Assembly: GCA_002269645.1 (NCBI GenBank)
Contig: NIVC01005186.1
Span: 1 to 23,059, forward strand
Direction: 5' to 3'
Length of the DNA stretch: 23,059 bases
Origin: Macrostomum lignano
Taxonomy: Eukaryota
Below are positions 1 to 20,722 of this stretch, one piece after another (positions within the stretch are counted from its first letter, which is position 1; every line of letters starts with the position of its first letter). Made by a program: the position numbers and the translations under genes. The notes below the pieces were generated by a model that was not told the DNA's origin, did no database searches, and was given only the letters and a program-made list of their open reading frames with translations.

Positions 1-450
1 GGAGGGGCGATTTTTCTATAGGGTTTTGGGGGGCGATTTTTCTATTATGTGGGGAAGGGCGACCTTTTCTATTGGTGCGAGGAGGGCGATAATTCTATTG
101 TGTTTGGGGAGGGCGATTTTATTTTAGGTTCGGGGAGGGCAATTTTTCGATTTGGGTTTGGGAGGGCGATTTTCTTTCTGGGTTCGGAGGGCGATTTTTC
201 TATAGGGTTTGGGAGGGCGATTTTTCTATTAAGTCTGGGGAGGGGCGATTTTTCTATTGGTTTAGGAGGGCGATTGTCCTATTGGGGCTTTAAGGGGCGC
301 GATTTTTTTCTGGTGTGTGGTTTGAGGAGGGCGATTTTTCTATTATAAGTCTGGGGAGGGGCGATTTTTCTATTGAGTTTGCAAAGGGCGATTTTTCTAT
401 TGGGTTTGGGAGGGCGATTATTCTATTGTTGAGGCAGGGCGATTATTTCA
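1..450. repeat. Degenerate G-rich tandem repeat (unit about 26-30 bp, core GGGCGATTTTTCTATT), probably continues beyond the left edge
   Basis: About 17 recurrences of GGCGA-TTTT-CTATT separated by GGG(A)GGG runs; lies in the intron downstream of the 475-737 exon. Confidence 0.85.
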
Positions 451-474
451 TGGGTATCGAATTCACAAGCGCAC

Positions 475-737
475 CTCCGGTCGATAATTGCAGGCTGCTG
501 AGTGTTAATCAGATCGGCGAACAAAGTCGGCAGGTCGGAACGGCCCTCCCGGATGCGGATGACGCGGTCCAGCGAGGCGCAGTTGCGACAGTCGTCGGGC
601 GATTTCAGCACAAACGGCGGAGTGTGCATCGGGTTGCCGATGAGGCAGAGCTCGTCTGGCAGGCCGAGCCACTCGGCAATGGGCAGAATGGTGGCTGCCG
701 TTGCTACGCGGAGATGCTTCATCACCGATAGACTGGC
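475..737 (-). CDS. Coding exon 2 of a C6orf89 (bombesin receptor-activated protein)-like gene; gene continues beyond the left edge
   Basis: Minus-strand acceptor TTCTCGCATGCAG (740-738), donor GAG|GTGCGC (474-473), high GC3. Peptide ASLSVMKHLRVATAATILPIAEWLGLPDELCLIGNP...PDDCRNCASLDRV...QQPAIID resembles the H-x-R...LPIA and CxxCA segments I recall from C6orf89 family proteins. Product call is inference. Confidence 0.7.
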
Positions 738-1277
738 CTGCATGCGAGAATTCAAGAGTCGGCGATTTCTCCTATTATTTACTACTCTCATACTGCTAGT
801 AGTATGGGCTTGATATGTGAATAAAAATTGTAAACAAAAATAAATAGTTAATACGAATGAATTGTACAGCTTGTACATTGCTGAGACTGTGGGGGGGGTC
901 TTGAGAATTGCCCGCAGACGAATTACTCGCCCATGTTAGCCCATAATGCTTAATTAAGTCTTAAAATATAGATTTACCCATCCAAAACGTCTCGATAGTA
1001 ACTGCATATCAAATGCATCTTTTTCTTGTACGTTTTCATTTTATATAACATGCAGGGGTACATTGGAGGGGTAAATTACTCTGGGCTGCAAGTGGCGCAA
1101 CTATAATGAATATGGGTCCGCAGAGTTGTATCTAAATTAGAATCCAAATGCATTTTGCATTTAAAACAAACTATTTAGTCTACTTGAGTTAGTAGAAAGT
1201 TAAGCGCTAGCATGACTCTTGGAAAACTTTTTCACGACTCTTTCTGTGAGTTGCAAGAATTACAAAATTTAACTTAC

Positions 1278-1502
1278 CTGCTCATTCATATAAATCAAAA
1301 TGCTTGGCACTACAATGAGCAGTACAGTTAAAACAGCAGGTCTGAGATGATACTTCATCTTCCAAGATGTGCATACTTTTGACAGCTTTTTAGACACTGC
1401 TGAAGGTGGACATGCTTGTTGTTCAATAATTAGCTGCCTTTTGAATTCTTGTAGTAGTTGCTCTGTGTGAACCAGATCAATTGATTCACCAGGTGTTGAC
1501 AT
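1278..1502 (-). CDS. First coding exon of the same C6orf89-like gene (N-terminal cytosolic segment plus one transmembrane helix)
   Basis: ATG at 1502-1500; consensus donor CAG|GTAAGT (1277-1272); phase-0 intron joins in frame to the phase-0 acceptor at 737; hydrophobic AVLTVLLIVVPSILIYM fits a type II membrane protein; upstream acceptor-like TTATTGCAG at 1526-1524. Confidence 0.7.
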
Positions 1503-2962
1503 AATGTAAGTTGTTCAAGTTGTCTGCAATAATTAATTGTCCATGCATTAAATTTTTATTTGCTAAACATTATCAACTTCTTTAGATTGGAAGTACACTC
1601 AATAATATTTTTTTTCATCACAAAACCAGCTCAACAGGACTGAGGACTGAGTTGCAGCTTTTATTTAATTCTATAGTCATAATTCTCCACTCTCCTTATC
1701 AACCCAAGCCAGGGCTTTGTGACAAAAATCGCATCACCTATAGCTTAGATAAGAATGGTGCACATGGTATAAATTATATCACTTAATGCTAAGATATAAA
1801 GAAAATTTAATCACTGATTTTAGGATATAAACATGTTACTAAATATATAATACTATTTTGGAAGCTTTAACAGGACCAATACCAATTGAATACAGCTATA
1901 TCAAAACCCCTATTAGGCATAAATCTATATCAAAGTTCTTTGATAAGCAAATAATGTCATACATAATCTTAAAGTTGCCAAGTAATTAACCCAAGCTACT
2001 ATTGAAAGCCTATATTTTAGCAAAGGATCAAATTGAAGTTTTAAAAATAATATTAGATAATATTAAGATGCCAAATATAGCCAACTTTTTATTTGCCATA
2101 GACATATAGACCTTAGTATACTTGGCAAACTATTTTTACAAAATCTACAAAATACCCTTTGGTTATAGGTTTAAAAGCAAGATTTTGCTATAGTGTCCTA
2201 TTCTATGACAAAATGTAAACTAAAAAGCTGCTAGCCTGACTTGGTCTTATGGAAACTAGACAAGTCTAGTTAAAGACTATTTAAATAAAGTAGAATAAAA
2301 GCTTAGGGCCTATTAGAATATATTAAATAAAAATTATTTAGGCCTATTAACTATCATCTATCTGTTTAGGCCTATTTCAATAGCTATTTGTTGTTTCAAT
2401 AAAACTTATTATCAATGGATACTAGTAATTAATTTTAGGCCATTTTGGCGAATTGCCAAAAATATAGATTTTTAAGGATGCAAATATTATTTGATTGCCT
2501 TTAAAATGACTAGGCTAGGCTCCACTATACTTTAAATAAGAAACTCTTTGTATCATTTTTTACAATAAAAATTAGCCTAGAATTAAATTGTTATAAATTA
2601 TTATACGGCCTATGAAACTTAGTTTTGGCATGATTATATCCAAGATATAGCCTTGCTTATACTCTTTACTTGGAATAAACAAATATTAGTAGCTTGTTCA
2701 AATTCAAATACTAATGATTAATGTCAATTTAAATTTGCAAGACATGATATCCCTGTGATCTATATTTAGTTGATTATTTCTTTAAAAATACAAATATAAA
2801 TTATTTGTCAAATGGAATATTAAAAACATTTTTTAGTTGGCATTCAAATTTTATTTGATACTAGTCATATTGAAATTAATTATTGTCAATGATTTTACCC
2901 TTAATCTATTTCAGGCTAAGCTTTAAATTGAAAGTAATACAAAAGTATGAGTCATCAGTCAA

Positions 2963-3140
2963 CCCTAGACAACCGGATTGCTCATTAATTATTGTGATTG
3001 TAATTCAATTGGGAAAATTGTAAAAATTGCAATTTGCTCGTGCAATCAGCTTGCAATCTAGATAAGTGCCTAAGAGCCATCTTTTTCTACTGATGAGTAG
3101 TCAAGTTAAAATTGGGGACTTGCGATAATTGCAATCTGAT
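2963..3140. repeat. Left TIR and subterminal ATTG(C/T)AAT repeats of the EnSpm-like element
   Basis: Several AATTGCAAT/ATTGTAAT copies following the TIR. Confidence 0.65.
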
Positions 3141-4050
3141 TATAAGAACATGCATGGCAGAAAAAAAAAGTGTTCTATGTTTTATATATTCAAATACTTT
3201 TATGACCATACACAATATTTTTTCATGAAAATATCTTTATTTTTATAGGTTCTGATAATGCATTCTATTGTTGTTTTACTTTGCATTAAAATAATGATCT
3301 AACCAAAATAAGTAAACGGCTTGCCAGGTATAATTTTCTTTGCGGCAAATGCTGACTACAGTGAGGCTCCCACGGCGTTTCTTCTTCAAAGTTTCTACTA
3401 CATCTGTACGAACAGAACCATTTGTTCTTTTAACTTTCTTGTAGTGTGTTTATATTCAGTCTCAGTCTAAAGTTTTTTCTTTTCGCACTGAATTTAATTT
3501 TTAACATTCACAATGCACAAAGCAAATGTAGATGCCAAGGGCAAGGCTATTCATTCATTCATTCAGTCAATCAATAATCAGGTTATTCATTCATTCAGTC
3601 CATTCAGGGGCTGTTAAAAAATTGTAGCTATATTTAGCTATATTTAGTTTTTAGCTATATTGCCTCTAAGTCAAATCAAAATTGAAACACTCTTAATTCT
3701 TTAATAGTGATAATCAATTTTGGTTAATAGTTTGCTCTTTTGGAACTTTTAAATGCCAGTTTTTTCTTTTGGTAATCCTGCTTTATATTCTAGATTTTCA
3801 ACTTCCATCCTATTCAATAGCTAGGCCTAGTACTATTCATATATTGTCTAATGTCTCCTTATTTTATTTGCATGTATTTGCTTACTATAAAATAAATTGC
3901 TCTCTCTAGACTAGTAGTCCAATGAGTCTATACCTATGCTACCAAGTACCTTAGGCCTAACTTTAATTAAATTGAATTGTTATGCTATAGAACCTTGAAT
4001 AGCTACTAGGTATAGCTAGTTTTGAAATATAATTTGAACATTGAAGACTT

Positions 4051-4647
4051 GGAATCTGGTCCATTTCAGCAACAAACCATTTCGGTGACACCCATTTCGG
4101 TGACAGGTTGATTTGGCAAGAACCATTTTGGCAACAGTTTTTAAATAGGATTTTGAATGTATTCTTATCTCATAGCCACAAAAGATTTCAGAACTTACAC
4201 AAATTTACAACCTTTGGTTTGATTAAGTGTTGTTAAAATGAATTATAGTGTAAAACAATTTACATTAAACTTTATAAGCTTTGTTAAAACTATGTTAAAA
4301 CAATTTTTAATGTAAAACTTAAAACGAATGGATTACAATTAGAAATTAATGTTCTTAAGAAACAAGAAAATTCAAATTCCAATTCAAAATTACAATTCGT
4401 GTATGATGTTTACTCTTCCACAGGGGCATTCATGCCACTGCATGCAAGCAGCGCCTCAAGAGTTCTGGTGCCGGCTTTGTACTTTGCCCAATAGTTTCAA
4501 CAAAATGCCTGTTGGGGGGTCATGTCAGCTGGGGGTAGTTTATTGTATTGTAGATACTTGTAATTTTTCTATTATATTTGTCAAGGAAATGGTCGTCGCC
4601 AAATTGACCTGTCGCCAAAATGGGTGTTGCCGAAATGGACAGGTACC
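4051..4647. mobile_element. Non-autonomous TIR element (MITE, about 597 bp; Mutator-like or unclassified)
   Basis: Imperfect inverted ends built from CCATTT(C/T)GG(C/T)(A/G)ACA modules (4051-4137 vs 4585-4647); direct repeat AAGACTT(G) at 4044-4050 and 4648-4654; no coding capacity. Confidence 0.75.
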
Positions 4648-5206
4648 AAGACTTGAAGTAGCTAAGCAACAGGCCTACTAGACTATAATAAGCAGTAAGG
4701 GTGGGCCTAATACTAATTGGTACTGGTATCCTTTTTTAATTGAACTATCACCTATGCCTATGCTATGGGTATGGCTATGTTTAGATAGCTATTATATTAC
4801 TATAGGCCTAGTTTATAGTAGAGCTACTATAGTTAGGCTATACAACATGTCAACAATGCTATAACAGTCAAAACTAGCTACCCTATGGATCTATATTTTG
4901 ATATGTTCTAGCTATTTTCTTTTTTACACAATGCTGAAGTCATTAAAATTGTAAACATGCAAAGGTAATGAAAATAGATACATGATTAAAATTCTATTGA
5001 ATATATTGTGTTCATATTAATAGTCTATAGAGTATAGACTATATAATCATTAGGTCCAGTATAGCTATTTAGGGAAAATTAATTAATTAATTGACAAAAA
5101 ATAGATAGCTATATAGCTCTAGTATCATAGTAGTATTGATCTACATTTTGTTTATTTGATTTCATTGGTATAGTAAAAAAGCTTAAATATTTTTTCATCT
5201 TTTCAG

Positions 5207-6320
5207 GTATGAAAACTTCTCAACACATTAATTCTCGCTCAAGATCATCCAACAAGCTTGACAAGTTTGCAACTCTAAGTTTTGACCATGTCATTCTATG
5301 GTTCCCAAAGACAAATTCCCATAGTGGACCTATTTATATAAATTCTAGTTTTCTTAGCCATTTCGACAAGGCTGAGAAAATGGAATTTAAGGAGCGTCAA
5401 CAAATCAAGATTCGTGAAAAGAATGGATTCCATGATGCCATTATTGTAAAGCTCGGCACTTATGCAAAAAATTAAAATTGCTGAACAACTATTGACCGCC
5501 TTGCTGAAGAAGGTTATAGTACTGAGACAATTTTTGAGAGACTTGATAATGAAATGTCTGTTGATTTGGATGCACGAACACGAACCTCTGCTACCTATTT
5601 GGGAGATAGTGATAGCAATGAAGGTGATGATGAAGAAAATGATGAGAACTATGTGCCACCTGATGACAGGTCTACAACTTTTAAGCCTCCTTTGACAATT
5701 ACTAGCCAGACTATGTCTTTGGAAAGGCAGAAGGAAGCAGATTTGTTCAAGTCTTATGGCAATGTGATTGTGGAGCCACCACTTAAGAAAGCTAAGAGTG
5801 CAAGTTGTGACCTTATTGATAATGCTAAGAATGGTGCCTGTGCACCTTTGTACTCATCTACACCACCTAGAAAACCACAGGATGTTGCCCTAGCTCAATG
5901 TATGAGACCAAGTAGCTTTTTTGTGACTTTTACAGAGCCAGCTACTGCTGCAGCAAGCCCACTTGCTCAGGGTTCCAAACTTCAAGCACCTGAGCCTAAA
6001 GTGTTAGATTTGCTTTTGCTTGAGGCTCGAGTACAAACTGGATTGTTGAAAAAGATCATCCGGCTACAGGAAGAAGGAAATGAATTGCTCAGACAAGGGT
6101 TTGGTTTCAATGATGAGGTTGTGAGCAAAGAAGATCAAGTTATTGCTGGTTGTGATGGCCGACCCTTTCGCCTGTCTCAGTTACCATTGCCACCTAACCT
6201 TTTTGCTCATGAGTTTGTACTCCGCAAATTTGGTGAACAGCTTTGTGAAACAACAATTATTGAGTCACATGGCAGAAGTGAAAGGATTGCTATGGATGTT
6301 GATTCAGTTCAAGCTCATTC
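5207..6320 (+). pseudogene. Truncated second gene of the EnSpm-like element, acidic/low-complexity protein with a probable BEN-like C-terminal domain
   Basis: Splice acceptor TTTTCAG at 5200-5206; ORFs 5209-5475, 5462- and 5554- join through two compensating frameshifts (KLGTYAK-IKIAEQL-DRLAEEGYS); PNLFAHEFVLRKFGEQLCETTIIESHGRSERIAMD resembles the start of a BEN fold; cut at about 6320 by BEL/Pao sequence. Confidence 0.5.
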
Positions 6321-6776
6321 AGTCGGCCGCTGTTGTATGTACCTTCAGATTCAGGCGACGGTATGGGGGTCATCACACTGTCCCATTTCATTGCAGCTAG
6401 TCGTCTCAGCCAAGAACCGGAAGATATTGACGATGAGGCGGACTCCATTCTACCGCTTCCGAAATGGCTCAGAATGCTTAGAGCAGCTCTGGATTGGTTT
6501 TGGAACCAATGGAAGACGTCCTACTTGGAGTCTCTGCGCGAGAAAGCCCTAAAGGATCAACCTAACCACCGCCTACCAAATGTTGGTGAAGTAGTTCTTC
6601 TGGCAGGTGAAGCTCAACAACCAAGACTCAAGTGGAAATTGGGTATTGTCGAGGAAGTTCGTCCTGGCCGTGATGGTGCTATCCGGTCGGTTCTTTGCGT
6701 TGCGGGTGCTGGGAGTTCTTGGGAACGGGTGAGACAGCCAGTCCAGTCGTTAATTCCTTTAGAGGTTCAATCCTAA
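6321..6776 (+). pseudogene. BEL/Pao polyprotein C-terminal fragment (DUF5641-like)
   Basis: Motifs above, in the frame of ORF 6333-6776; 5' part of the polyprotein is missing. Confidence 0.85.
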
Positions 6777-7170
6777 GACCGTTATTTTTTTGTCCTTTCC
6801 ACGACTCTCGAATTTGTTTGCTAACTTTTTTGACAGCCTCTTGCAAAATTTTGTAATGGGAAAAGGTTTGTTTTCTGTTTTTGAGATAATTCTCTTGGTG
6901 GTGGACGATGTTACGCGTCATTATTCGTCATTTTTCCATTTACGTTGTAATATATTTTTTCCTCATCTATCATGCTCACATACACTTAAACTTGGCTCTA
7001 ACAGTTTTCTGTTCTCTGCTGACTGTTTCACTTACAACAACAAACCAGTCCTTGTCTGTTAGGCTAAGATTTTTTTCCTTTTTCATTGTTTTTTTTGCAA
7101 CAAGTTCGAATGTAATGTAGTTTTGCTGCTCCGAATTTAAAAAATCAAATGATAAATCATTTGGGGGGAG

Positions 7171-7384
7171 TGTCGAAAAATGAGTTGGCCTAGGCTAGCC
7201 GCTTATTTCATCTAATTTATTTTCTCTTATTTTTCACTGTATGCACAATGTATATCTCCGCCAACACCCCAAAATTCGTTAAGTTAGAAAATATAAAAGC
7301 TGGATTCTGGGCAGCGACCGCCCTAACTTCATTTTCTTTATCGCCAGTCAAAATCAATTATTGGTTTATTTTATTACAGGAACA
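7171..7384 (+). repeat. Probable BEL/Pao 3' LTR (TGT...ACA, about 214 bp)
   Basis: Starts TGT right after the PPT; TATAAAA at 7292-7298; ends ...GGAACA where transposase-like coding resumes. The end could also be the ACA at 7376-7378; no second LTR is available for comparison. Confidence 0.6.
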
Positions 7385-8946
7385 GGGATTAAGACAGACA
7401 TACTTAAAAATTGTCCAATAATTTATGATACTGCCCAAGTTATTACAATCTTTTTGCATCTTTCCACTGATGGCTGTAGCTTGTACTCTAATTCTCCCTC
7501 TTCTTTGTGGCCTGTTCAAGCTCAAATTTTAAATCTTCCACATTTTTGCATTTTCAGCCAGAAAACTTCTTAATTTTTTCTCTCTTTCTTGGTGCAAAGA
7601 AGCCTAACTGGAAAACATTTCTAGAAGACCATCTGGCTTCAGTTTTTGAAAAAAACATTCTGTTTTACTATTCGAAACAGGCCTATGCATTTTCGTGTTA
7701 AACTCTTTTCGGCTACTTTTGATCTTCCTGCCTTGGCTAGCATACTAAACCATAAGCAATTTAATGGCGAGTTTGGTTGCCTTTACTGTGAAAATCCCAG
7801 TAGTACTGTTAAAGTCGGCCATGGATCCGCACGCAAGTATTCTGAGCCTCATTTATCTACTCCAGTTTCGAATGCTGTTTATTTATCACGAGTTCAACTA
7901 GTCTGTCTCTCTGGTGAGAAGAGCCTTTTTGGTATTAAGGGTGATTCTGTTCTTAGGAAGTATGTGCGCATTCCAAAGAATATTTTGCTTGATTCATTGC
8001 ACTTTCTTTATGAAAATTGTTGTGGCACTCTAATGAAATATATGTTTGATGGTTCCTACCAACAACTGAGTTGCTACCTTGGGCAAAGTCTGCCCTTCTT
8101 TAATGATACTCTTAAAAGAGTCAGCGTGCCTAAGTCAGTAACAGTACCATTTTGTCTAGAGCTTCGCTCTTCGTGGAAAGCCAAGGATTACATGTTCGCT
8201 GCAATGTATCTATTGCCTATATTTGCTTTCCATTGCTTCAGTAGGAAAAATCAGGCATGCGCCATTGCTTTGCTTTCTTTTTCTCTTGTTTGTCATGTAG
8301 CAAATTCTGTAGACTGTGAGCACTACTTGGCGCTTCTCAATAAAGTAATTCAACACTTTATGTCAACTTTAGGAACTGCATTTGATGCCAATGTATACAC
8401 AATTAATTTTCATCTCCTGTGTCATTTGCCGAACAGCTTCTCAATTTTGGTCCTCTAACAGGATACTCTATGTTCTCATTTGAGAGTCAATTTTCAACGG
8501 TAAAGAATTATATTCAAAGGAATCGATTCCATATCAAGCAAATATGCGAAAAGCTCATTCTGCAAAAATGTTGCACTTTCTGTCTTAAGGAGGGAGCTGC
8601 TGCTCAATCTAACAGCTGCATTTTTGAGCTGCTCACTTCTAAGTTTAGAATTTTATCAAGCAGTCCTTCCGCCTGCTGGCGATTTCTATCCACTTATGCA
8701 ATAGTGCAAAACAATCGTCTCTTTTATGCTACTTCTTATCCGAAATTGCCCCCTACTCGGTCATGTATTGTGCAGTTGAAAGATGGTTGTTTCTGCAAAG
8801 TAGTTTGTTTTCTGAATGGCACCGATATTTTAGCTGATGTAATTTTTTTAGACATCTGCAATTTACAAGACTTTTTAGGTAAAGTGGCTCGCTTGATGAA
8901 GAGTAGATAAATAAAGGTAATATCAACATGAAGTATTATTTGAGTT

Positions 8947-8989
8947 GCCGATGCATTTCGTCCATTTGCATTAGGACATCGTCAGGGTC
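8947..8989 (-). ncRNA. Minimal type I hammerhead ribozyme motif (left arm copy)
   Basis: Minus strand reads GACC-CUGACGA-U-GUCC-UAAUGCAAAU-GGAC-GAAA-UGCA-UC-GGC; predicted cleavage between 8950 and 8949; stem I is weak. Confidence 0.65.
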
Positions 8990-9242
8990 TTTTTATTGAG
9001 AAACAATTTGAAGAATATTCAGTATATATAGATAGTTGAGAGTAACAAGAGTAGTTGAATTGAGTTTTTAATTGATGGTTTAAAACTTGTACATAGTAAT
9101 CAATTTTTGATACAGTATTGGTTGGGTAAAGTGCATATCAGTTTCAAGCCAGTCCGGTCATTGACAAATCAGCTAAAAAATTCTGAGTTGACGGCTAGCC
9201 CCACCCATCGCAAGTTGGTTGTTTAACGTGGGCTGTTTGGTC

Positions 9243-9300
9243 TTAATGTACATGTTTAATGTACATCTTTAATGTACATTAGTTAATGTACATCTTTAAT
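9243..9300. repeat. Four TTAATGTACAT copies at 13-14-bp period, plus a partial fifth
   Basis: Copies start at 9243, 9256, 9269 and 9283; partial at 9296. Confidence 0.9.
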
Positions 9301-9620
9301 GATAAAGGCTATTGATTTTTGTAATAGAGATCACATGCTCTGCCTATTAGAAGCCCTGTACATTAAGACCAAACAGCCCACGTTAAATAACCAACTTGCG
9401 ATGGGTGGGGCTAGCCGTCAACTCAGAATTTTTTAGCTGATTTGTCAATGACCGGACTGGCTTGAAACTGATATGCACTTTACCCAACCAATACTGTATC
9501 AAAAATTGATTACTATGTACAAGTTTTAAACCATCAATTAAAAACTCAATTCAACTACTCTTGTTACTCTCAACTATCTATATATACTGAATATTCGTTC
9601 AAATTGTTTCTCAATAAAAA

Positions 9621-9663
9621 GACCCTGACGATGTCCTAATGCAAATGGACGAAATGCATCGGC
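9621..9663 (+). ncRNA. Minimal type I hammerhead ribozyme motif (right arm copy)
   Basis: CUGACGA 9625-9631, extra U 9632, stem II GUCC 9633-9636 / GGAC 9647-9650, GAAA 9651-9654, palindromic AUGCAU stem III, triplet AUC ending at 9660. Confidence 0.65.
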
Positions 9664-10410
9664 GGCTCAAATGGTGCTTCATGTTGATATTTACCTTTAT
9701 TTATCTACAAGACTTTTTGAATCTGTCCAATGTACCTATTGCTGCTGATATATTATGTTTAGCAAAGACTTTCTTGTTTATCTGCTGCCCGTCTTCTAAC
9801 ACCTGCACTATTCCAGTGGGATGTAATTTTCTGCATCAGTGTGTTTCAGTCAATAATATTTTTCCCGATAAGGACTTGTGTCTTGTTATACTAGATTCTT
9901 GCCACCATGAATATAGCTTAATTTGGGATGACTTAAAAGCTGAGTAGGAACTGTTAAAACTGAGTAAGCACTACTAAGAATTGTATCTGTCGCGGATCAT
10001 TTTCAAAATATAGATCACTTGAACCAATTGCCATACAATAATTTGCTTATTGCTTGCTAGTTGTGTATCTTGTTTGATTTTTTGTTGACTGTTGTATAGT
10101 TAGAAAAAGGTAAAAATACAAGAAAACATTTTATATGTACTCAAATTTCAATTTTAATGACTTTTAACGTTTCACTTTCTATGCAGCTTTAATTTGAGTG
10201 TTATATAAATATAATAATGGAATGCAATTGTGCATATTGTACTAATTGTACATTATAAAATGCCCTGAATAGTAATCGATTCTGGTTAGAAAAAAATCCT
10301 CTCATGTGTTTATCGTCTTCCTTACATTAATTTTCTAATCTAAAAATTCAGAACATTGGCAAAAGCCATACATGCTACTCAGAGTAAACTGTGTGTCTAT
10401 CCACCAAAAG

Positions 10411-10633
10411 TAATTGCAATTGGATTACGCCAGAAATTGCATAAATTATAATTCAATTGGTCTAAATTGCAACACTTACAATCTGCATGTGCAAAATTGC
10501 TAAAATTGCAATTTTGATTGTAATCAGCTTATTCAAAATTGCAATTGACGTGCACACAATTGGCAATTATTGTACAATTTCGGCAAGTAGATTGCAATTT
10601 TCAACAATTTCTTGTAATTTTGGTTGACTAGGG
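10411..10633. repeat. Right subterminal AATTGCAAT repeats and TIR of the EnSpm-like element
   Basis: Roughly ten ATTG(C/T)AAT-type motifs preceding GGTTGACTAGGG. Confidence 0.7.
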
Positions 10634-10776
10634 AAGACTAATAAGAGAAAAAAAGACAAACTAGGCTATATTAGGCCAGGCTAATCTAACCAGACTCTAA
10701 TCAAACAACTATTATAAATGACACTTGTTATTTGCACAGTACCCTATAAATAGTATTGTCATTATTTACAAAGTAA

Positions 10777-11602
10777 CAAGCTGTTGAAACCCGCAGATTT
10801 TGAACCCGGGGAATTCCAATCCCCGGAACTACTTTTGCATGTATTCTAAATCTAAGGTCATGCACAAACAAAAACTTGTTAATAGTTAGTAGGAAAGAGG
10901 TAGACATAAAATGGACACATTCGTGTAAAATTAGGATTTGAAGCAAAAATTGATATTGTTGGCTGGGGTACTTCACAGAATGTCAGGCAATGTCTGTCTG
11001 ACTCTAAAACATGTATTGCTAAACTTTGGTCTCTCCCTGACTCTCCCTATGTCCCTTGGATCCTTTAAAATTTCTATCGTCTCTTCTGTTTCCTCTCTTC
11101 TCTCTCGTCCCTCGTCTCTCCTCTCTCTTCTCTCCTCTCTCCTCTCTTCTCTCATATCTTCCCTCATCTCTCTTCTCTTTCATCTCTCTTATCTCTTGTC
11201 TCTTCTCTCTACTCTCCTCTCTCTCTCTTCTCTACTTTTCGTTTCTCTCTTCTCTCCTCTCTCCTGTCTCCTCTCTACTTTTCGTTTTCTCTCTCCTCTC
11301 TCCTCTCTACTTTTTCGTTTTCTCTCTTCTACTCTCTCCCCCTCTTCTCTCGTCTCTTCCTTCTCCTCTCTATTCTTTTCTCTCTTCTCTTAACTCTCTC
11401 CTCTCTTCTCTCACCTCTTTCCTCTCTCTCTTTCCTCTCATCTCTTTTCTTGTTTTATCTCTTCTCTCTCCCCTCGTCACTCGTCTCTTCCCTCACCTCT
11501 CTTCTCTCTTGTCTGCGTTTTTATCTCTCCTTTCTCTTCTTTTATCTTTTCTCTCTTATCTCTTCTCGTTTCTCTCTGCTCTGCGCTCTCTCTCTCTCTC
11601 TG

Positions 11603-11667
<65 letters not shown>

Positions 11668-13714
11668 TCTCCTCTCCCATCTCTCTTCTCCTCTCTACTC
11701 TCTCCCCTCTTCATTCTCCTATTTCCTCTTCTCTCTCCCTGTCTCTCCTCTCTCCTCTAGTCTATGTAATCTCTTCTCTCTTATCTCTCCTCTGTTCTCT
11801 CTACTCTCCCATCTCTCGTCTGTTCACCCTCATCTCTGCTCTCTCATCTGTCATCTTTACTCTCTAATACGTTCTCTCACTTATCTCCTCTGTAATCTTC
11901 TCTTTCACCTCTTCTGACTCCTCTCTTTCCTTACTCCTCTCTTCTTTTCTCTTCCCTCTTCTATACTCTCTCTCTCCTCTATTATCTTCTCTCATCTCTC
12001 TGCACTCTCCTCTCACCTTTTTCATCTCTCATCTTTACTCTCTCATCTCTCCTTTCATTTGTCTCATCTCTACAATCTCATCTCTCCTTTCTCCCCTCTT
12101 CTTACACCCCTCTCTTATCTCTATCTCTTCTCTTCTCACTCCTCTCTCCCCCTCTTATCTCCTCTCTTCTCTATCCTTTCTACTCTCTCCTCTCCTCTTG
12201 ACCCTCTGTCATCTTCTTTCTGCTCTCTCATCTCTACTCTCTTCTCACTCTTCTTTACTCTCCTCTCATTGATCCTCTGTCTCATCTCTCCCCTCTTCTC
12301 ACCTTTACTCTTTTCTCACCTTTACTCTTTCCTCTCCCTCCTTTCTCCCCTCCTCTCGCTTCTTCCTCCCTTCTTTTCTGCTCTCTCCTCACCACTTGTC
12401 TCTCCTCTTATCTTCCATGTTTTCTCTAATCCCCCTCTCGCCTCTCCTCTCTTCTAATAGTCTATTCCTTCTCCTTTCCACTCTCATCTGGCCCGCACAT
12501 GAGCTGGATTCTTTATCTGGCTTTTGAAGTAAAAGTCTGCCAATCACTGCTTCGAAAGCCAGTTTGTGGGACGTACTACTCTCATCGTTATTCACATGCT
12601 TTGATCACGTCATCTTTCTTGCCAATTTGCAGCCCTGAAAGGAATTTGTGTAATCTTCAGCTCCACTGCAGTCTGGACTCTGGATCAGTCTAACAACCAA
12701 GGAAATACGCATTTCTTAGGAGGCCATTTAAAATTTACACACTACCTTTAAAAGAAACCTAAAATTTCCATGGTGTGGCTAATTTAGTAGGGTTGTATTG
12801 CACTGCATTGCCTTTTCATAAATCTTTCGCTTTTACAAACCATGCTGGATTCCCTCGATTTGCCAATTGCCATCCACTGTTAAACTGCTGCAGAGTTTGC
12901 CAATACAGAGGGGAGGGCAGTGGTTAGAATTTCTCACTAAACTGTTATGGCTAAACGTAGCCTCTCCACTCTCGGGGTGCGAGAAGGCTATAAATAAAGT
13001 TATTCCAAAACACTCTACATTTGCTATGTACATTCAGTCCTATTGCCTGACCCTTCGTCTGGCTCTGGGGGGAATGAGTGGAGTGAGTGAGTGGCACAAA
13101 CAACAGAAAAAGCAGACAAACTTCACATGCTTACAGTTTCTTTTTCGGTTGAGTTACAGAGTTGAAACTTTACATTTAGACAGAGAATGGGTCAATGAAG
13201 AATTGTGTCAAGTTTGAAGTCAATCGTTTTACGTGGAGCAAACTTAGGGCAGCTGAAAGTTAGTCAATTTTGAAACCCTTTTACACATCTGGGCCCAGAT
13301 CGGGAAAGAGAGGCAGGCAGGCGGAGGTTGGGGTGGCTGTCTCGCTGAAAAAAACAGCCTAACTTTAAAAGTGCACAGCGCCGTTCAGGATTAACTTTGA
13401 GATTTAAAATTTTACACGATTGTGTCAAAATAGTTAAAAATTGCCTGTGTCAAATTTGAAGAGAATCGGTAGAAGTGGAGTGGCGCTATGGAGGATTTAG
13501 TAAAAAAATCGCGCATTTTGAGCAGTTTTTTGTACTTTTAGGTAGGAAGACTTGAGTCTAGGAAATTTAAAGGTAGCCTAAGACATTCTCCGTAGTAAGT
13601 TTAGGGTGGGTATAAAATTTGGTGTCATTTGGTTGAGCGGTTTGGGAGTCCATAGCGATCAAAATTGTCCACACACAGACACACACACAGAGTTTTGATT
13701 TTTATATGTAGAGA
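10777..13714 (-). mobile_element. Putative non-autonomous Helitron-like element (about 2.9 kb)
   Basis: On the minus strand it begins A|TCTCTACATATA next to a (GT)-type microsatellite (13670-13690) and ends CTTG|T with a GC-rich hairpin CCGGGGA/TCCCCGG (10806-10826) upstream; A|T target with no TSD; AAATTT...AATCG-type modules at 13204, 13446 and 13611. The end is CTTG rather than canonical CTRR. Confidence 0.5.
11071..12488. repeat. Degenerate CT-rich (homopyrimidine-biased) tract of about 1.4 kb with a perfect (TC)27 core at 11611-11664
   Basis: Directly visible; the plus strand is nearly devoid of purines. Confidence 0.95.
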
Positions 13715-14802
13715 TTAAAAAAAGACTAATATATAAACTAGTTTTATAAACTGTATAGTACATATAACTATGGTCTAATTATATTTGACCACAAATCTAC
13801 ATGTATCTTTTTAAAAGCAAATAAGTTGCATTGTTGTTTGTTTCTTTTAAAACACCCTTTTGTATTCTGCATCATAAATAGTATGCAAGTACAAAGCTAA
13901 TAAAAAATGCTAAGCTATCAACACATAAAATCAAGCCTAAACTCTATTTACCAACTTTAGAAGTTTAGTTAGTTAAAATTCATTATGAAAATATAAGATA
14001 CAGGGAAAATATTGAGTAGTCCCTGATAGGATAATTATTTAAAAGGTATTTTTTCAGTTACTGTGTAAATAACACTGGCAATATTTACATGGTAGGCCCT
14101 ACTGTGCAAATAAATAACAACTGCTATTATAAATACCATTACCACTGTCCTTAATATTAAAATAAATGGTTTACTTGGATTGCTTTGCTAAAGTCAAAAT
14201 ATCAAAGAGAAGTCAAAGAGAAATAGCAATAGCTTAGAGTAAAGCATTTTATTATTAGATTTCAAATTGTAAGATATTGAATTATACTTAAAAAAATATT
14301 AGACTTATCACTTAGTCTTAGACTGCTGCCTAGCTAACATTAACAACTAATGAAAAAATCTATTTGTTCAGTCCCCAATCAGTTTGTCATTACTCATAAT
14401 CTGCCATTTTGTCATCTTAATAATTTAGCATTTTTACTAACTGAAGACCAGAAGAGCGTCACAAAAGCAGTTTGATCGTGTGTACTCCAGACTCCGGATT
14501 GTATACATGTACGCCGGAAAATTCCGGCGTACAGAGGGACCTAGATTACACATTGGCGTACAACTTGGCGTACAAAGGCGCCTGGCGTGCCCTCTTGGCG
14601 TACGGCTTGGCGTATAGAGATTGCCGAGACCAGCAGGTGGGACCAAAAGTTCCGAGTCCCAACAATCAATCTACATAATTAGCATACAAAAATGATTAAG
14701 TTTGCATTTGGCATAGTTTCCATGTACATAGTTACAGTAAATATACAGTAGCTAAATTTTGATCAGAAAGAATGGCTGGCCCTTTACGAAAAAAACGGAA
14801 AA

Positions 14803-15139
14803 TGTAATAGTGCTCAATTTGCGTGCGCGTGCACTTCTAGTGTTTTCTCCGTATTTCTTTCTGCGTCACCCCACCCCTGCGTATAGCCTTTTCTAGAAAT
14901 TTCTTTTTGTTTCTGATTGGCTGAAAACGCGTGAATAACGAGCCCCAACCAATAGAGTGCTTAGTGCCTACCCTATCGGCGAAATCCGATTGGTTAGGAT
15001 TTTCTAAGCTGCGTTTTTCACCCTGCCCTCCCCCATCGCGGTCAGTCTATTTAATCAAGCAAGCTGGAACGCAAATAAATCAAGTTTTTCTCTGACTAAA
15101 GAAGTCCCGGCAGTTAAAACTCAAGAATACGCGGCTACA
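14803..15139 (+). repeat. 5' LTR (337 bp)
   Basis: TGTAATAG...GGCTACA; no differences from 20723-21059 by eye. Confidence 0.97.
14916..15079 (+). promoter_or_regulatory. LTR promoter/polyadenylation signals: three CCAAT boxes, TATA-like TATTTAA, AATAAA
   Basis: ATTGG 14916-14920, CCAAT 14949-14953, ATTGG 14989-14993, TATTTAA 15048-15054, AATAAA 15074-15079. Confidence 0.6.
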
Positions 15140-15140
15140 T

Positions 15141-15155
15141 TGGCGACCACGCCAG
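15141..15155 (+). other. Primer-binding site, probably tRNA-Arg
   Basis: TGGCGACCACGCCAG one base after the LTR; its complement reads as a tRNA 3' end (CTGG-CGTGGTC-G-CCA). tRNA identity is inferred. Confidence 0.75.
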
Positions 15156-15163
15156 TTTTCCAC

Positions 15164-16288
15164 ATGTGGAATAACGACGACTACCTGGAACTACGTGGAC
15201 GTCTCGTCGGACGACGGCGCAACGCAGGCGACGAGGCAGCTTCCGTTTCTACAGAGTCTACGAACGCGTCCAACCCCTTCGTGTCGATGACCACAGTCAG
15301 CGAAGCCACAAATCCCTTCCTCGTTGCCAACGACCTTCAGAGGGCACACTCGGCGGAAGTCTCAACCAACCCGTTCCTTGAAGACATCGACCAAGCGTCA
15401 GGGCAGGCCTCAGCAATGCAGCAGTACGCCTATCCTCCAGCTCACGGATACGCAGCGCTGCCAGACTACAATCCAGTACCGGCTCTTCCGCCAGTACCTA
15501 AGCCTGCACCGTACAACGGTCGGGAGGATTTCGACGACTTTCTCATCAGGATCAGCGCCTATATTAGCCGGTTCCCAGGCCTTCGAGACGCCGACAAGAT
15601 CAACACCCTGACTGCGTTCCTCGGACCGGCTTTTGCAACGTACACCACCTGGCTGGCGATCCAGTGTGCCTACGTCGGACTGCCACCGGGGACAACCCTG
15701 GACCAGCTACCTGGTGTCCGCTATGAGGGCCTCGTTGAACACCTCCGGTCTCGTCACGGCGGGGCCAAGAGTGCAGCGTTACTTCGCCGCGAGTTCCGTG
15801 CTCGGCAGCGTCGACCAGAGGAGAGCTTCGAAACGTACCTGACGGAGCTTCAACGGCTAGCTGCAAGGGCATACCCGGACCCAAGAGCTCAGGCTTACGT
15901 CCAACAGACAGTTAGCGAGCAGTTCATGCATGGTCTCAATGACGGCTACGTCACCGAGCGACTACTGAATCAACCAACACCACCAAGCACTGTGGAGCAG
16001 GTTCTACGAATAGCCCAGCAGCTTCGAGAAACCCGGGCCTACATGGATGCTGGCCGTGGCGAAATCCAGCCCCAGCAACCGAGACCACCACAGAGCCAAC
16101 TTTCAGCGCCACCGAAACCACTAATGCCTCAGCAGCCTGCCTCATCTGGCGGTCGAGGACAGCAACGACAGCAATCACCGGCTAGTTCCAACTGTTTCGG
16201 CTGCGGTCAGCCGGGCCACATCCGACGCAATTGCCCAAACGCCGAGGGGGCTGGTTCACGAGGCCAGCACCGGCCCTCTCAGCACTAA
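15164..16288 (+). CDS. gag: Gag polyprotein with a single CCHC zinc knuckle
   Basis: First ATG at 15164 (the ORF track starts at a TTG overlapping the PBS); PKPAPYNG...F, QRRPEESFETYLTELQRLA capsid-type motifs; CFGCGQPGHIRRNC. Confidence 0.92.
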   Translation: MWNNDDYLELRGRLVGRRRNAGDEAASVSTESTNASNPFVSMTTVSEATNPFLVANDLQRAHSAEVSTNPFLEDIDQASGQASAMQQYAYPPAHGYAALPDYNPVPALPPVPKPAPYNGREDFDDFLIRISAYISRFPGLRDADKINTLTAFLGPAFATYTTWLAIQCAYVGLPPGTTLDQLPGVRYEGLVEHLRSRHGGAKSAALLRREFRARQRRPEESFETYLTELQRLAARAYPDPRAQAYVQQTVSEQFMHGLNDGYVTERLLNQPTPPSTVEQVLRIAQQLRETRAYMDAGRGEIQPQQPRPPQSQLSAPPKPLMPQQPASSGGRGQQRQQSPASSNCFGCGQPGHIRRNCPNAEGAGSRGQHRPSQH

Positions 16289-19200
16289 CGCATTCGGCCT
16301 CAACACCACGCCTCAGCAGCTGCCAGCCTGGCCAGGTGCGCTTCGTCACAGCGCGCATCCTTAGACGACGGCGCCACTGTCTGATCGACACCGGGGCAGA
16401 GGTGTCCTGCATCAGCGATGACATATGTAAGAAAGCTAGGCGGCGGCTGCAGCCCAGCAGCATCATCATAAGAGGCGTGGATGGCAACCTACAGTCTGTG
16501 CTGGGCGAGACTACTTTGGCAGTGACTCTGGGAACCGTACAAGTCCATCATCGTTTCGTCGTACTCGAGAAGCTTCACCCGACGTCCGTCATCCTGGGCT
16601 GTGACTTCCTCAGTGAACACGACGTCTCGGTCCATCTCCAAGCCGGTTGCATCACTTTCAACAGCCTAGGCGTGTCGATTCCAGCTCGAAAAAGTAAAGA
16701 GGCAGCACAGACCTGCAAGCTCGTATCAGCGGCCTCCGTGCAGCTGCAGCCAGGGGAGCGCTGGATAATCCCCGTTAAACCAGCAAAGTCGGCCTCGTGG
16801 ACGCGATCGGAGTGTCCAGGAGTCGTCACCGGCACAAGATCACAGGGGCTCCTGGTGGGTCGTTGTGTTGCCAAGCTGGTCGAGAGAGGCATGGGCCTAG
16901 CAGTCATCAACGTCGACGACCACACGGTCAACATCAGCGACGGCGACATTGTTGGCATCTTTTCCCCGCTAGGAAGTCAGCCATTCGTTCAGCAATCGGG
17001 TGCCGCTGGCAGCACGGCGGCGACGGCCGCTGGCAGCACGGCGGCGACGGCCACTGGCAGCACGGCGGCGACGGCCGCTGGCAGCACGGCGGCGACGGCC
17101 GCTGGCAGCACGGCGGCGACGGCCGCTGGCAGCACGGCGGCGACGGCCACTGGCAGCACGGCGGCGACGGCCACTGGCAGCACGGCGGCGACGGCCGCTG
17201 GCAGCACGGCGGCGACGGCCGCTGGCAGCACGGCGGCGACGGCCGCTGGCAGCACGGCGGCGACGGCCGCTGGCAGCACGGCGGCGACGGCCGCTGGCAG
17301 CACGGCGGCGACGGTCGCGGTCAGCACGGCTACATCAACAACAGCTTTAGCGACGGACTTACCTCGCACCAACTGGCTGAACGACGTGCACATCGAAAGC
17401 TCTATCTCCGTCGAAGAGCAACAGTCGGTCAAGGATTTGCTGTTAGAGTTCAGCACCGTTTTTGCATCCCCTGGCAATGCTGGTCGAACTGCAGTCCTGC
17501 AGCATCGCATCGACACCGGCGGGGCAAGGCCGATCCGGCAGGGTTTGCGGCGTGCAGCGCGTCCAGTCATCGACAAGCAGGCCGAATTGATCGACGACAT
17601 GCTGACCAAAGGAGTAATCCGGCCGTCTTCATCGCCTTGGGCTTCGCCAATCGTGCTTGTTCGTAAGAAGGACGGGACAGCGCGCTTTTGCTTAGACTAT
17701 CGACTGCTCAATGAGGTCACCAAGCCGGACGCTTTTCCAATTCCGAGGATCGACGACACACTCGATGCGCTGCAAGGCAACGCCTACTTCTCGGCACTCG
17801 ATCTGGAGAGTGGCTACTGGCAGGTTGAGGTCGAGGAGCGCGACAAAGAGAAAACTGCTTTCATCTGCCATCAAGGCCTCTTCGAGTTCAACGTCATGCC
17901 GTTTGGTCTGCGCAATGCCCCGGCAACCTTTCAACGCCTCATGCAGCTGGTGCTCCAAGGCCTGACCTGGCAAGCGTGCCTGGTCTTCATCGACGACGTT
18001 ATTGTCATGGGCCGGACTATCGAGGAGCACAACTATCGGCTGCGGGCGGTGTTCGAGCGGCTGCGGGACGCGAACCTACGCTTGAAGCCATCTAAATGCC
18101 ATTTCGCCAACACCACGATGATCGTCTTGGGCCATCGAGTTTCCAAGTCGGGTATCACCGTCGACGAGTCAAAGACTGCTGCGATCCGAGACTGGCCTAC
18201 ACCCCGAACTTCCAAGGAGGTCAAGAGCTTCCTAGGTCTCGCAGCCTACTATAGACGGTTCATTCGGGATTATTCAAAGATCGCCGAGCCGCTACGACGC
18301 CTGACGGTTCCGACAGAAAGGTTTCAGTGGACGTCCAAGGCCCAAGAAGCATTCGACCAACTGAAGGCAACACTGACCTCTGCTCCAATCCTCGCCTTCC
18401 CGGATACTAGTGCGACCAGCTCGGAGTTCATTCTGGACACTGACGCCAGCGACTGCGCCATTGGTGCGGTACTCTCTCAACTGCAGGCGGGCGAAGAACG
18501 AGTCATCGCGTACTCCAGCAGAGCACTAACAAAAGCCGAGCGCAACTACTGTGTAACGAGGCGGGAGCTGCTGTCCGTCGTTGAGCATGTCAGGAAGTTC
18601 CGGAATTACCTGCTGCCTCGGAAGTTCACCGTGCGGGTCGATCATCAGTCTCTAACGCACCTGCTGACATTCAAGGAGCCCGAAGGTCAACTCGCGCGGT
18701 GGCTGCAGACGCTAGACGAGTTCGACTTCAGAGTACTCTATCGGCCGGGCCGTCAACACAACAACGCCGATGCGCTGTCCCGTCAGCAGCAGCGCTGTAC
18801 CAACCAGTGTCGGGTGTGTCGACCAACAAATGAGACCACCAGCAGGACGACATCCTCGGTTGCCTGCCAGACCGACGCCAACAGTGATGCCGCCGCTGCC
18901 GCCCAGATCAACGCAGCGACCATCAAGCTAGTGTCGACGGCTACCGACGAAGCTGTTCAGACCGACAATGTGCATGTCTGCGTCGGCACCGTGCCATCAA
19001 GGCGCAAGCAAATCCATCAGCCCCGGTCGGACGACAGCGAAGAAAGCAGCAGCAGCGAGGACGACACCAACGAAGATGAATCCGCAGCGCCAGCGGCAGA
19101 CAACAGGCCACCGACGCTACGTATGCTTCAGCTGCAGGATCCGGTTATCAGTCCGGTGTTCCGACTGCTGGCCGACGGCAAGACTAGGTTTACCGACCGA

Positions 19201-20466
19201 CAACGCGACCGAGTACCGCCGGAGAGCCTGGTGCTGGCGCAGAAGGTGCATGACTTGTGTTTCGTGAACGGTACACTGCACAGGCTGGTCAACACAAAGC
19301 CAGTACCCGTCATTCCCCGCTGCCGACAACGCGAATTTGTCGACGAGATTCACAACGTCGGCCACCTGGGCGAAGTCAAGACGCTGGCCAGCCTAAAGAC
19401 GCGTTGCTACTGGCCAAAAATGTCGGAGAGCGTCCGGTTGGCCGTTCGGTCATGCCAGGTTTGCCAGCGGGCAAAGACTCCGGTTATCAAGCGGGCGCCG
19501 CTACAGTCCATCACTGCAGGGTTTCCAATGCAGCGTGTCGGGTTCGACATTGTCAAGGTCGGCGCTTCCAGAAACGGCAACGATCGGATCCTGAGCATCG
19601 TCGACTACTTCAGCAAGTGGACGGAGCTGGTGCCGATTCCGGACGAGAAGGCGACGACAATTGCCAAGGCCCTCTTCAACAACTGGATCTCCAGGTGGGG
19701 TGCTCCGCATATTCTCCACTCCGACCGCGGCAAGAGCATCGATGGCCGCATCATTCGCAGTCTCTGTACACTATTGGAGGTCGACAAGACTCGAACGTCG
19801 GGCTATCATCCTCAATGTGACGGCCTCGTGGAGAGATTTCATCGGACACTCCATCAGATGTTGCGCTGCCACCTTCAAACTGTCGATCCGCTGGACTGGG
19901 AGGACGCCCTGCCGTACTGTCTCCTAGCCTATCGAAGCAGCATCAGCGCGACGACCGGATTTTCCCCACATTTCCTGATGACGGGCCGGGAGGTGGTTCT
20001 GCCATTGGACGTTGTCTATCGGTCCCCAGAGCCTCCATCCGTCGTCGGCCAGTACGCAGTAGAGACCATTCAACGACTGCAGGACGCCTTTGACGCTGTG
20101 CGGAGGTCAACTGGCGCGGCTCAACGACGGCAGAAGCGGTACTACGATCTGAAAGCCCAGAAGCGCAAGTTTCGCACCGGCGATCTAGTGTGGCTGTTCG
20201 TTCCGCCTGCTGTGCTGTCCAGGACCAACTGTCTGCCTCCGAAGCATCAATCACCGTGGACAGGCCCATTTAAAGTCATGCGCAAGACATCACCTGTCAA
20301 CTACTTGGTGCGGCCGATCAATTACACGGACGGGGAGATCAAGGGGCGCGTCGTGCATGTCAACAAGTTGAAGCGAGCGTGTCTGCAACGGACCCAGTCT
20401 GCTCAGCGTGCTGATCAGGACGCCAGTAGTGACGATGAAGGGCAACTTGTTGACGCTGAGGACTGA
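16231..20466 (+). CDS. pol: Pol polyprotein (aspartic protease, dUTPase-like remnant, repeat linker, RT, RNase H, integrase with GPF motif); -1 frame relative to gag
   Basis: LIDTGA (D at 16387), ILGCDFL; RT motifs LDYR, LDLESGYWQV, MPFGLRNAPATFQR, FIDD (17986-17997); RNase H DTDAS...NYCVTRREL...DH...ADALSR; integrase HHCC, D-D-E core, WTGPF; no chromodomain; no internal stop codons. Confidence 0.97.
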   Translation: MPKRRGGWFTRPAPALSALTHSASTPRLSSCQPGQVRFVTARILRRRRHCLIDTGAEVSCISDDICKKARRRLQPSSIIIRGVDGNLQSVLGETTLAVTLGTVQVHHRFVVLEKLHPTSVILGCDFLSEHDVSVHLQAGCITFNSLGVSIPARKSKEAAQTCKLVSAASVQLQPGERWIIPVKPAKSASWTRSECPGVVTGTRSQGLLVGRCVAKLVERGMGLAVINVDDHTVNISDGDIVGIFSPLGSQPFVQQSGAAGSTAATAAGSTAATATGSTAATAAGSTAATAAGSTAATAAGSTAATATGSTAATATGSTAATAAGSTAATAAGSTAATAAGSTAATAAGSTAATAAGSTAATVAVSTATSTTALATDLPRTNWLNDVHIESSISVEEQQSVKDLLLEFSTVFASPGNAGRTAVLQHRIDTGGARPIRQGLRRAARPVIDKQAELIDDMLTKGVIRPSSSPWASPIVLVRKKDGTARFCLDYRLLNEVTKPDAFPIPRIDDTLDALQGNAYFSALDLESGYWQVEVEERDKEKTAFICHQGLFEFNVMPFGLRNAPATFQRLMQLVLQGLTWQACLVFIDDVIVMGRTIEEHNYRLRAVFERLRDANLRLKPSKCHFANTTMIVLGHRVSKSGITVDESKTAAIRDWPTPRTSKEVKSFLGLAAYYRRFIRDYSKIAEPLRRLTVPTERFQWTSKAQEAFDQLKATLTSAPILAFPDTSATSSEFILDTDASDCAIGAVLSQLQAGEERVIAYSSRALTKAERNYCVTRRELLSVVEHVRKFRNYLLPRKFTVRVDHQSLTHLLTFKEPEGQLARWLQTLDEFDFRVLYRPGRQHNNADALSRQQQRCTNQCRVCRPTNETTSRTTSSVACQTDANSDAAAAAQINAATIKLVSTATDEAVQTDNVHVCVGTVPSRRKQIHQPRSDDSEESSSSEDDTNEDESAAPAADNRPPTLRMLQLQDPVISPVFRLLADGKTRFTDRQRDRVPPESLVLAQKVHDLCFVNGTLHRLVNTKPVPVIPRCRQREFVDEIHNVGHLGEVKTLASLKTRCYWPKMSESVRLAVRSCQVCQRAKTPVIKRAPLQSITAGFPMQRVGFDIVKVGASRNGNDRILSIVDYFSKWTELVPIPDEKATTIAKALFNNWISRWGAPHILHSDRGKSIDGRIIRSLCTLLEVDKTRTSGYHPQCDGLVERFHRTLHQMLRCHLQTVDPLDWEDALPYCLLAYRSSISATTGFSPHFLMTGREVVLPLDVVYRSPEPPSVVGQYAVETIQRLQDAFDAVRRSTGAAQRRQKRYYDLKAQKRKFRTGDLVWLFVPPAVLSRTNCLPPKHQSPWTGPFKVMRKTSPVNYLVRPINYTDGEIKGRVVHVNKLKRACLQRTQSAQRADQDASSDDEGQLVDAED
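16234..16301 (+). promoter_or_regulatory. Candidate -1 programmed ribosomal frameshift signal (slippery C CCA AAC plus H-type pseudoknot)
   Basis: Heptamer 16234-16240 in correct gag phase; stem 16244-16255/16269-16280; loop GAGGCC 16260-16265 complementary to GGCCTC 16296-16301. Confidence 0.7.
17002..17313 (+). repeat. In-frame minisatellite, 13 x 24 bp (GCC[G/A]CTGGCAGCACGGCGGCGACG), encoding (A[A/T]GSTAAT)13
   Basis: Units every 24 bp from 17002; ACT variant in units 3, 7 and 8, otherwise identical. Confidence 0.97.
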
Positions 20467-20708: not shown

Positions 20709-20718
20709 GAAAGGGGAG
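20709..20718 (+). other. Polypurine tract
   Basis: GAAAGGGGAG four bases upstream of the 3' LTR. Confidence 0.75.
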
Positions 20719-20722
20719 CTTT

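What the first reader, a model, noticed from the sequence alone, without database searches (positions are those of the whole stretch)
9661..9676. Five clustered A/G differences between otherwise near-identical arms, immediately 3' of the ribozyme cleavage site
In ribozyme-sense orientation the left arm reads GGCAACTCAAATAATAC and the right GGCGGCTCAAATGGTGC. These are five A-versus-G differences in 13 nt (9664, 9665, 9673, 9674, 9676), while the remaining roughly 335 bp show one substitution and two indels. This fits either ADAR A-to-I editing of the RNA template fixed by reverse transcription (A ancestral), or cytidine deamination of first-strand cDNA (G ancestral; T at 8934, 8936, 8937, 8945, 8946).
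Basis: partly seen in the sequence, partly recalled or inferred. Interest (0 to 1): 0.7.

Follow-up and report, generated by a model that had tools for sequence, protein, structure and literature searches.

The report
RNA edits written into genome assembly
Five A-to-G differences in one arm of a mirror-image jumping-gene insertion carry the signature of ordinary RNA editing, and were likely copied into the genome assembly from edited RNA reads rather than being present in the animal's DNA.

Summary
The five differences are in the assembly as described. A is ancestral: 169 places carry the A form, 3 the G form, and those three are haplotype contigs of this one insertion, an inverted Penelope-like pair inside a CACTA transposase ORF. 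The changes have an ADAR pattern. They are A-to-G on one genomic strand over BOTH arms (14 sites across the three contigs), on the host gene's sense strand, 18 of 19 family sites follow T or A, and they recur at two unrelated insertions. They are unlikely to come from the element's reverse transcription: they also hit the antisense arm, differ between haplotypes against the haplotype tree, and appear in an unrelated terminal-inverted-repeat family. One of four RNA-like runs has hyper-edited contigs with these G's; four DNA-like runs show none, though such contigs drop rare variants. Best reading (0.8): real ADAR editing of read-through hairpin RNA, written into the assembly by polishing with RNA reads. 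The polishing step is inferred, not shown. Cytidine deamination and subfamily switching are refuted.

The parts
8864..8876 (+). Left target-site duplication (13 bp)
   Evidence: Same 13-mer at 9706-9718; single copy at 9 of 9 empty paralogous sites
8877..8902 (-). 3' 'tail' of the Penelope-like element, on the left arm only
   Evidence: two classes of 3' end across the family; tail described in PMC11167929 and PMC8557442
8903..9256 (-). Left arm: 5'-truncated Penelope-like copy, 3' end pointing outward. A>G on + at 9221 here; at 8919, 8926, 8935, 8938, 8973, 8995 only in sister contigs
8950..8985 (-). Minimal hammerhead motif of the left arm
   Evidence: Sequence; features as in PMC4209133; cleavage untested
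9243..9301 (.). Inversion junction with 13-14 bp tandem repeats
   Evidence: longer in C16
9298..9708 (+). Right arm: 5'-truncated Penelope-like copy without tail; pairs with the left arm over about 350 bp in a + strand transcript
   Evidence: fold -644.9 kcal/mol, z -68
9625..9660 (+). Minimal hammerhead motif of the right arm (extra U after A9, palindromic helix III, 2-bp helix I); predicted cut after 9660
   Evidence: Sequence; PMC4209133 passages; no Rfam hammerhead match
9664..9676 (+). The five G's (9664, 9665, 9673, 9674, 9676): likely A-to-I edits of RNA recorded in the assembly
9706..9718 (+). Right target-site duplication (first 3 bases shared with the arm end)
7625..8863 (+). Host CACTA-type transposase ORF upstream of the insertion (broken in this contig); likely source of the read-through transcript
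   Evidence: Empty paralog L131 has a 708-aa ORF with Pfam Transposase_21 E 1.9e-08 and DUF4218
9719..9947 (+). Host transposase ORF resumes after the insertion

Best explanation
The five G's are A-to-G changes on the transcribed strand of a 350-bp inverted repeat, likely made by ADAR in RNA and likely written into the assembly when RNA reads were used to correct it, so the animal's DNA would have A at these sites. Steps: (1) shown: an inverted pair of 5'-truncated Penelope-like copies inserted into a CACTA transposase ORF; (2) predicted: a + strand transcript through it folds into one long duplex; (3) shown for the family, inferred for this locus: such RNA is hyper-edited A-to-G; (4) inferred: where edited reads outnumbered DNA reads, a majority-vote polish changed A to G, at different subsets of sites in each haplotype contig.
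For: Polarity: 169 A-type, 3 G-type places. Both arms, one strand: 8 of 8 substitutions among the three contigs inside the element are A>G on +, against mixed changes at 31 flank sites. Tree conflict: of 10,103 four-way sites, 9 flank sites group C5186 with C3903 and 0 group C3903 with C2163, yet 3 element A>G sites do. Two more insertions show both-arm, one-strand clusters (C106/C424/C612 with different subsets, and C2341); at 3 of 3 loci the edited strand is the sense strand of the host or neighbouring genes. Strong clusters in 7 of 51 inverted-pair segments, 0 of 31 others. 5' T/A at 18 of 19 sites, background 63%, p 0.002. ADAR (dsrm plus A_deamin) is encoded. RNA-like run X19 has two contigs with 14 and 7 further differences that carry G at four or five of the five sites, and 12 A>G places in the arm. 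Four DNA-like runs read A at 9664, 9665, 9673, 9674, with no T>C place and at most one A>G place in the arm. An unrelated TIR family shows 37 of 56 substitutions as A>G/T>C in 60 arms, haplotype-variable.
Against: No raw reads were seen. Logan contigs drop variants: window flank letters at 9786 and 9791, present in a contig of X5, are missing from all four DNA-like runs. The 9676 row was among 20 of 60 rows cut. Only 1 of 4 RNA-like runs shows edits, its kind is a guess, it has no matched DNA, and its contigs lie wholly in the arm, so they cannot be assigned to this locus. The five G's and 9221 are shared by all three intact haplotypes, which also fits one inherited event. In the TIR family the neighbour test was not significant (5' G/C at 10 of 23 sites, 52% expected, p 0.28). 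The 7 clustered segments are 3 insertions, some found by searching for the edits. How the assembly was polished is not known from any call.
Confidence: 0.8

Rival explanations
1. One reading: the right arm was reverse-transcribed from an ADAR-edited Penelope RNA, so the five G's are real and date from the insertion.
For: The five are A>G in element sense, lie just inside the 3' end where copying starts (PMC11167929), and are shared by C5186, C3903 and C2163. The DNA-run absence has a demonstrated gap.
Against: Does not explain T>C in element sense on the partner arm, haplotype-variable subsets, the tree conflict or the TIR family. The same sites vary among haplotypes of a second insertion, so a second process is needed anyway and accounts for the five as well.
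Confidence: 0.08
2. Edits are written back into DNA in the living animal after insertion, by RNA-templated repair, cDNA conversion, or deamination of the DNA strand at transcribed hairpins.
For: Would give one-strand A>G over both arms, haplotype variation and independence from element class.
Against: Needs many independent multi-site events among haplotypes about 99% identical; none of the edit-type variants shows in four DNA-like runs. All 14 sites at this locus lie within 120 nt of a unique junction where only 73 of 144 favourable A's do, as expected of short-read mapping, though this is confounded with where duplexes form. Left-arm sets are nested, as a vote threshold would give.
Confidence: 0.07
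3. Consensus error unrelated to RNA (long-read or hairpin-related miscalls).
For: The contig is indel-rich: 63 gap openings against 26 mismatches versus C3903 over 16.6 kb.
Against: Errors would not follow the host gene's strand, ADAR context, or match hyper-edited RNA contigs site for site.
Confidence: 0.03
4. G is ancestral and the left arm lost it by cytidine deamination of cDNA, or the two forms are common subfamilies joined by a template switch.
For: None beyond the two-arm comparison.
Against: 169 A-type places; the G form occurs only at this insertion; G at +14 at 7 places in all.
Confidence: 0.02

Closest known systems
ADAR hyper-editing of repeat-derived dsRNA in Metazoa (PMC5625713, passages read)
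   Same: Dense A-to-G clusters in long, nearly perfect duplexes from inverted or palindromic mobile elements; G depleted 5' of the site; no strong 3' G preference, as in invertebrates.
   Different: There the edits are RNA-versus-genome mismatches; here they stand in the reference itself.
Inverted Penelope-like insertions with tail and minimal hammerhead (PMC8557442, PMC4209133 passages; PMC11167929 parts 1-2 of 4)
   Same: RT plus C-terminal GIY-YIG family, 5'-truncated inverted copy, tail at one end, minimal type I hammerhead.
   Different: No difference in structure. Editing of these hairpins was not mentioned in the passages read; none of the 15 listed papers of one search held both 'Penelope-like' and 'ADAR'.
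Mismatch clusters entering reference genomes; APOBEC DNA editing of retroelements (PMC2873906, passages read)
   Same: One-type mismatch clusters in mobile elements; technical clusters can be integrated into references.
   Different: APOBEC gives G-to-A in element sense after reverse transcription; here polarity is A-to-G and follows the host transcript, not the element.

Membership tests
Penelope-like element (EN+) | RT followed by C-terminal GIY-YIG endonuclease in full-length copies | tested here: met
   L084: RVT_1 E 3.2e-09, GIY-YIG E 1.5e-06
Penelope-like element (EN+) | Partial tandem or inverted pseudo-LTRs, 30-40 nt tail at one end | tested here: met
   51 of 82 fetched segments are outward-facing inverted pairs; two 3' end classes
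Minimal hammerhead ribozyme of PLEs | Core CUGANGA/GAAA/UH, extra base between 9 and 10.1, G10.1-C11.1, palindromic helix III | tested here: met
   Read from sequence 9625-9660 against PMC4209133 passages; helix II folds; Rfam gave no hammerhead match
Minimal hammerhead ribozyme of PLEs | Self-cleavage | not testable with these tools
   No raw reads or assay
ADAR A-to-I editing | A-to-G on the transcribed strand of a long duplex, both arms | tested here: met
ADAR A-to-I editing | 5' neighbour bias (G depleted, U/A favoured) | tested here: inconclusive
   Met in the Penelope family (18 of 19, p 0.002), not significant in the TIR family
ADAR A-to-I editing | G in RNA, A in DNA of the same individual | tested here: inconclusive
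   G in contigs of 1 of 4 RNA-like runs, absent in 4 of 4 DNA-like runs; unmatched samples, contigs only
ADAR A-to-I editing | Enzyme encoded (dsRBD plus deaminase) | tested here: met
   C2205: two dsrm and A_deamin
APOBEC-type cDNA deamination | G ancestral, G-to-A in element sense | tested here: not met
   A ancestral
Edits fixed by retrotransposition | Changes only in element sense, identical in all descendants of one insertion, present in DNA | tested here: not met
   Antisense-arm changes, haplotype-variable, tree conflict; not seen in DNA-like contigs
Assembly polishing artefact from RNA reads | RNA reads were used in polishing; a DNA-only assembly lacks the changes | not tested
   No call gives the assembly method or a second assembly

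The most novel reading that the evidence does not exclude
ADAR edits are written back into germline DNA at transcribed hairpins genome-wide, regardless of element class, by RNA-templated repair or deamination of the DNA strand. Haplotypes would then diverge by strand-coherent A-to-G clusters, and Penelope ribozyme cores would be inactivated at the DNA level.
Probability: 0.07. Interest if true: 0.9.

Novelty: not a real feature. Interest (0 to 1): 0.25.

Why it matters
If the best reading holds, A/G clusters in hairpins of this assembly are RNA edits, not mutations. Any finding from this genome that rests on arm asymmetry, copy age or haplotype SNPs in inverted repeats should be checked against DNA reads. 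It also shows that inverted Penelope insertions are ADAR substrates in this animal, with edits reaching the hammerhead GAAA core, and the assembly can be mined as a list of highly edited sites. Only the write-back reading would be a discovery.

Tried and rejected
Rfam found no hammerhead, only weak microRNA-hairpin matches. A special role of the ribozyme cut was rejected: edits also lie upstream of it (-7, -6, -40 to -45, -272, -300) and on the antisense arm. A stabilised helix III from the five G's was considered; the 76-nt fold is no better than shuffles (z 0.55). Conversion between arms was rejected: it would give T>C on + in the left arm, and the sites +12 to +16 interleave. The first hairpin-versus-solo test was uninformative (6 of 41 against 3 of 32, p 0.38) because short partner arms were scored out; reclassified by core motif it gave 7 of 51 against 0 of 31 (p 0.03), leaving out two weak two- or three-site cases (C23, C197). 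C16, which lacks most of the right arm and has no A>G on the left, is a single control and weak. X11 has no cover at 9618-9697; X15 and X5 read A at all five sites. Paper searches listed no paper describing RNA edits written into a nuclear assembly by polishing; one search listed none on A-to-G clusters fixed in retrotransposon copies (listings only). No supplements were read.

Full report
Observation. The window is G000:C5186:1-23059. The two arms differ as stated: A/G at right 9664, 9665, 9673, 9674, 9676 against left 8946, 8945, 8937, 8936, 8934, plus one substitution and two one-base gaps. Such clustering arose in 60 of 2,000,000 random placements.

Anatomy. The arms are 5'-truncated copies of a Penelope-like element: a tandem full-length relative encodes RT and GIY-YIG. 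Both 3' ends point outward, the left arm carries the tail, and a 13-bp target-site duplication flanks the pair (8864-8876, 9706-9718). Nine of nine paralogous host sites are empty. The host is a CACTA-type transposase ORF on the + strand. A + strand transcript is predicted to fold into a duplex of about 350 bp. Each arm holds a minimal hammerhead motif with the traits given in PMC4209133 (passages); the inverted structure and tail match PMC8557442 (passages) and PMC11167929 (parts 1-2 of 4).

Polarity. The A form matches 169 places, the G form 3. The three are C5186, C3903 and C2163, haplotype-like contigs about 99% identical with the same flanks. G is derived; cytidine deamination and two subfamilies are excluded.

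The change follows the genomic strand, not the element. Among the three contigs, 8 of 8 substitutions inside the element are A>G on +, six of them on the left arm, where they read T>C in element sense; the 31 flank substitutions are mixed. The window's sixth substitution, 9221, is also A>G on +. A fourth version, C16, lacks window 9407-10314 and has no A>G on its left arm. With it as outgroup, 9 flank sites group C5186 with C3903 and none groups C3903 with C2163, yet three left-arm G's do (10,103 sites, simple repeat 11000-12500 left out). These three do not behave as inherited mutations.

Other copies. I fetched 82 segments: 60 regions around places listed (100 of its 169 places were listed), plus loci. 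Two more insertions show one-strand A>G over both arms: C106/C424/C612, with different subsets in each haplotype and the same sites +4, +5, +13, +14, and C2341. At both, the edited strand is minus, the strand of the neighbouring zf-UBP, ankyrin and RNase H exons. Strong clusters occur in 7 of 51 inverted-pair segments and 0 of 31 others; these are three insertions, partly found by searching for edits. Of 19 distinct sites 18 follow T or A, against 63% background, in line with the ADAR preference in PMC5625713 (passages). The genome encodes ADAR.

Reads. Only contigs were available. In four DNA-like runs from three studies, A depth equals total depth at 9664, 9665, 9673 and 9674 in 13 of 16 cells; two differ by 0.1 and one by 8.8 of 19,335 at a single site. 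All ten T>C places per run lie in the flank, and at most one A>G place per run can lie in the arm; 20 of 60 rows, including 9676, were cut. In one of four RNA-like or unlabelled runs (X19), two contigs over 9588-9703 differ at 14 and 7 further positions; by their depths one carries all five G's and the other four. Twelve A>G places lie in the arm, including the GAAA core, and loose ends carry the antisense-arm changes. Against: contigs drop real variants (9786, 9791), X19 has no matched DNA, its contigs cannot be assigned to this locus, X15 and X5 read A, and X11 has no cover.

Independent control. A scan of 152 loci gave 47 hairpins, 18 not Penelope; one had 6 of 6 same-direction mispairs. 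It belongs to a family with 154-bp terminal inverted repeats and short target duplications, and lies between two minus-strand kinase exons; its changes are A>G on that strand. Across 60 arms in 32 loci, 37 of 56 substitutions are A>G or T>C and 9 are G>A or C>T. One site recurs on either terminal repeat at seven loci, and three haplotype sets differ. The neighbour bias was not significant there. That such elements move without an RNA step is established knowledge of DNA transposons; the family was classed by structure only.

Mechanism. RNA editing of read-through hairpins explains type, strand, context and recurrence (about 0.95). How it reached the sequence is inferred. Polishing with RNA reads explains haplotype-variable, nested subsets near unique junctions in an indel-rich contig, and absence from DNA-like contigs (0.8 overall). 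Fixation at insertion (0.08) fits only the six shared changes. In vivo write-back (0.07) is not excluded without raw DNA reads. That majority-vote polishers can take RNA reads is recalled, not from a call; searches listed no paper describing this artefact.

Verdict. A real, ordinary RNA process, most likely recorded as a false DNA feature. Interest 0.25, mainly as a warning about this assembly.

Noticed in passing
window 9652-9654; G000:C424 (L102): A-to-G changes hit the hammerhead GAAA core in X19 contigs and in one assembled copy; editing would disable the ribozyme in such RNAs.
   Followed up: partly
L069:11-568 (G000:C434:449810-450367) and L154-L185: Unrelated family with 154-bp terminal inverted repeats showing the same one-strand A>G clusters; next to another small inverted Penelope pair in a kinase intron.
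   Followed up: yes
window 14803-21059: Ty3/gypsy LTR retrotransposon with identical 337-bp LTRs, gag and pol ORFs; present in C3903 and C2163, absent from C16.
   Followed up: partly
window 17002-17330: 24-bp tandem repeat, 13.7 copies, in frame inside pol between protease and RT.
   Followed up: no
G000:C16:742461 (L137): Fourth version of this locus with window 9407-10314 deleted and a longer junction repeat.
   Followed up: yes
window 6303-6776: DUF5641 match, a remnant of another LTR element.
   Followed up: no
window 5-444 and 11080-12270: 26-27 bp satellite and a 1.2-kb CT-rich tract.
   Followed up: no
L080 (G000:C616:235398-236088): Ten 72-bp tandem copies of an internal Penelope piece at the inversion junction of one insertion.
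   Followed up: no
window 1-16631 versus G000:C3903: 63 gap openings against 26 mismatches: residual one-base indel errors are common in these contigs.
   Followed up: partly
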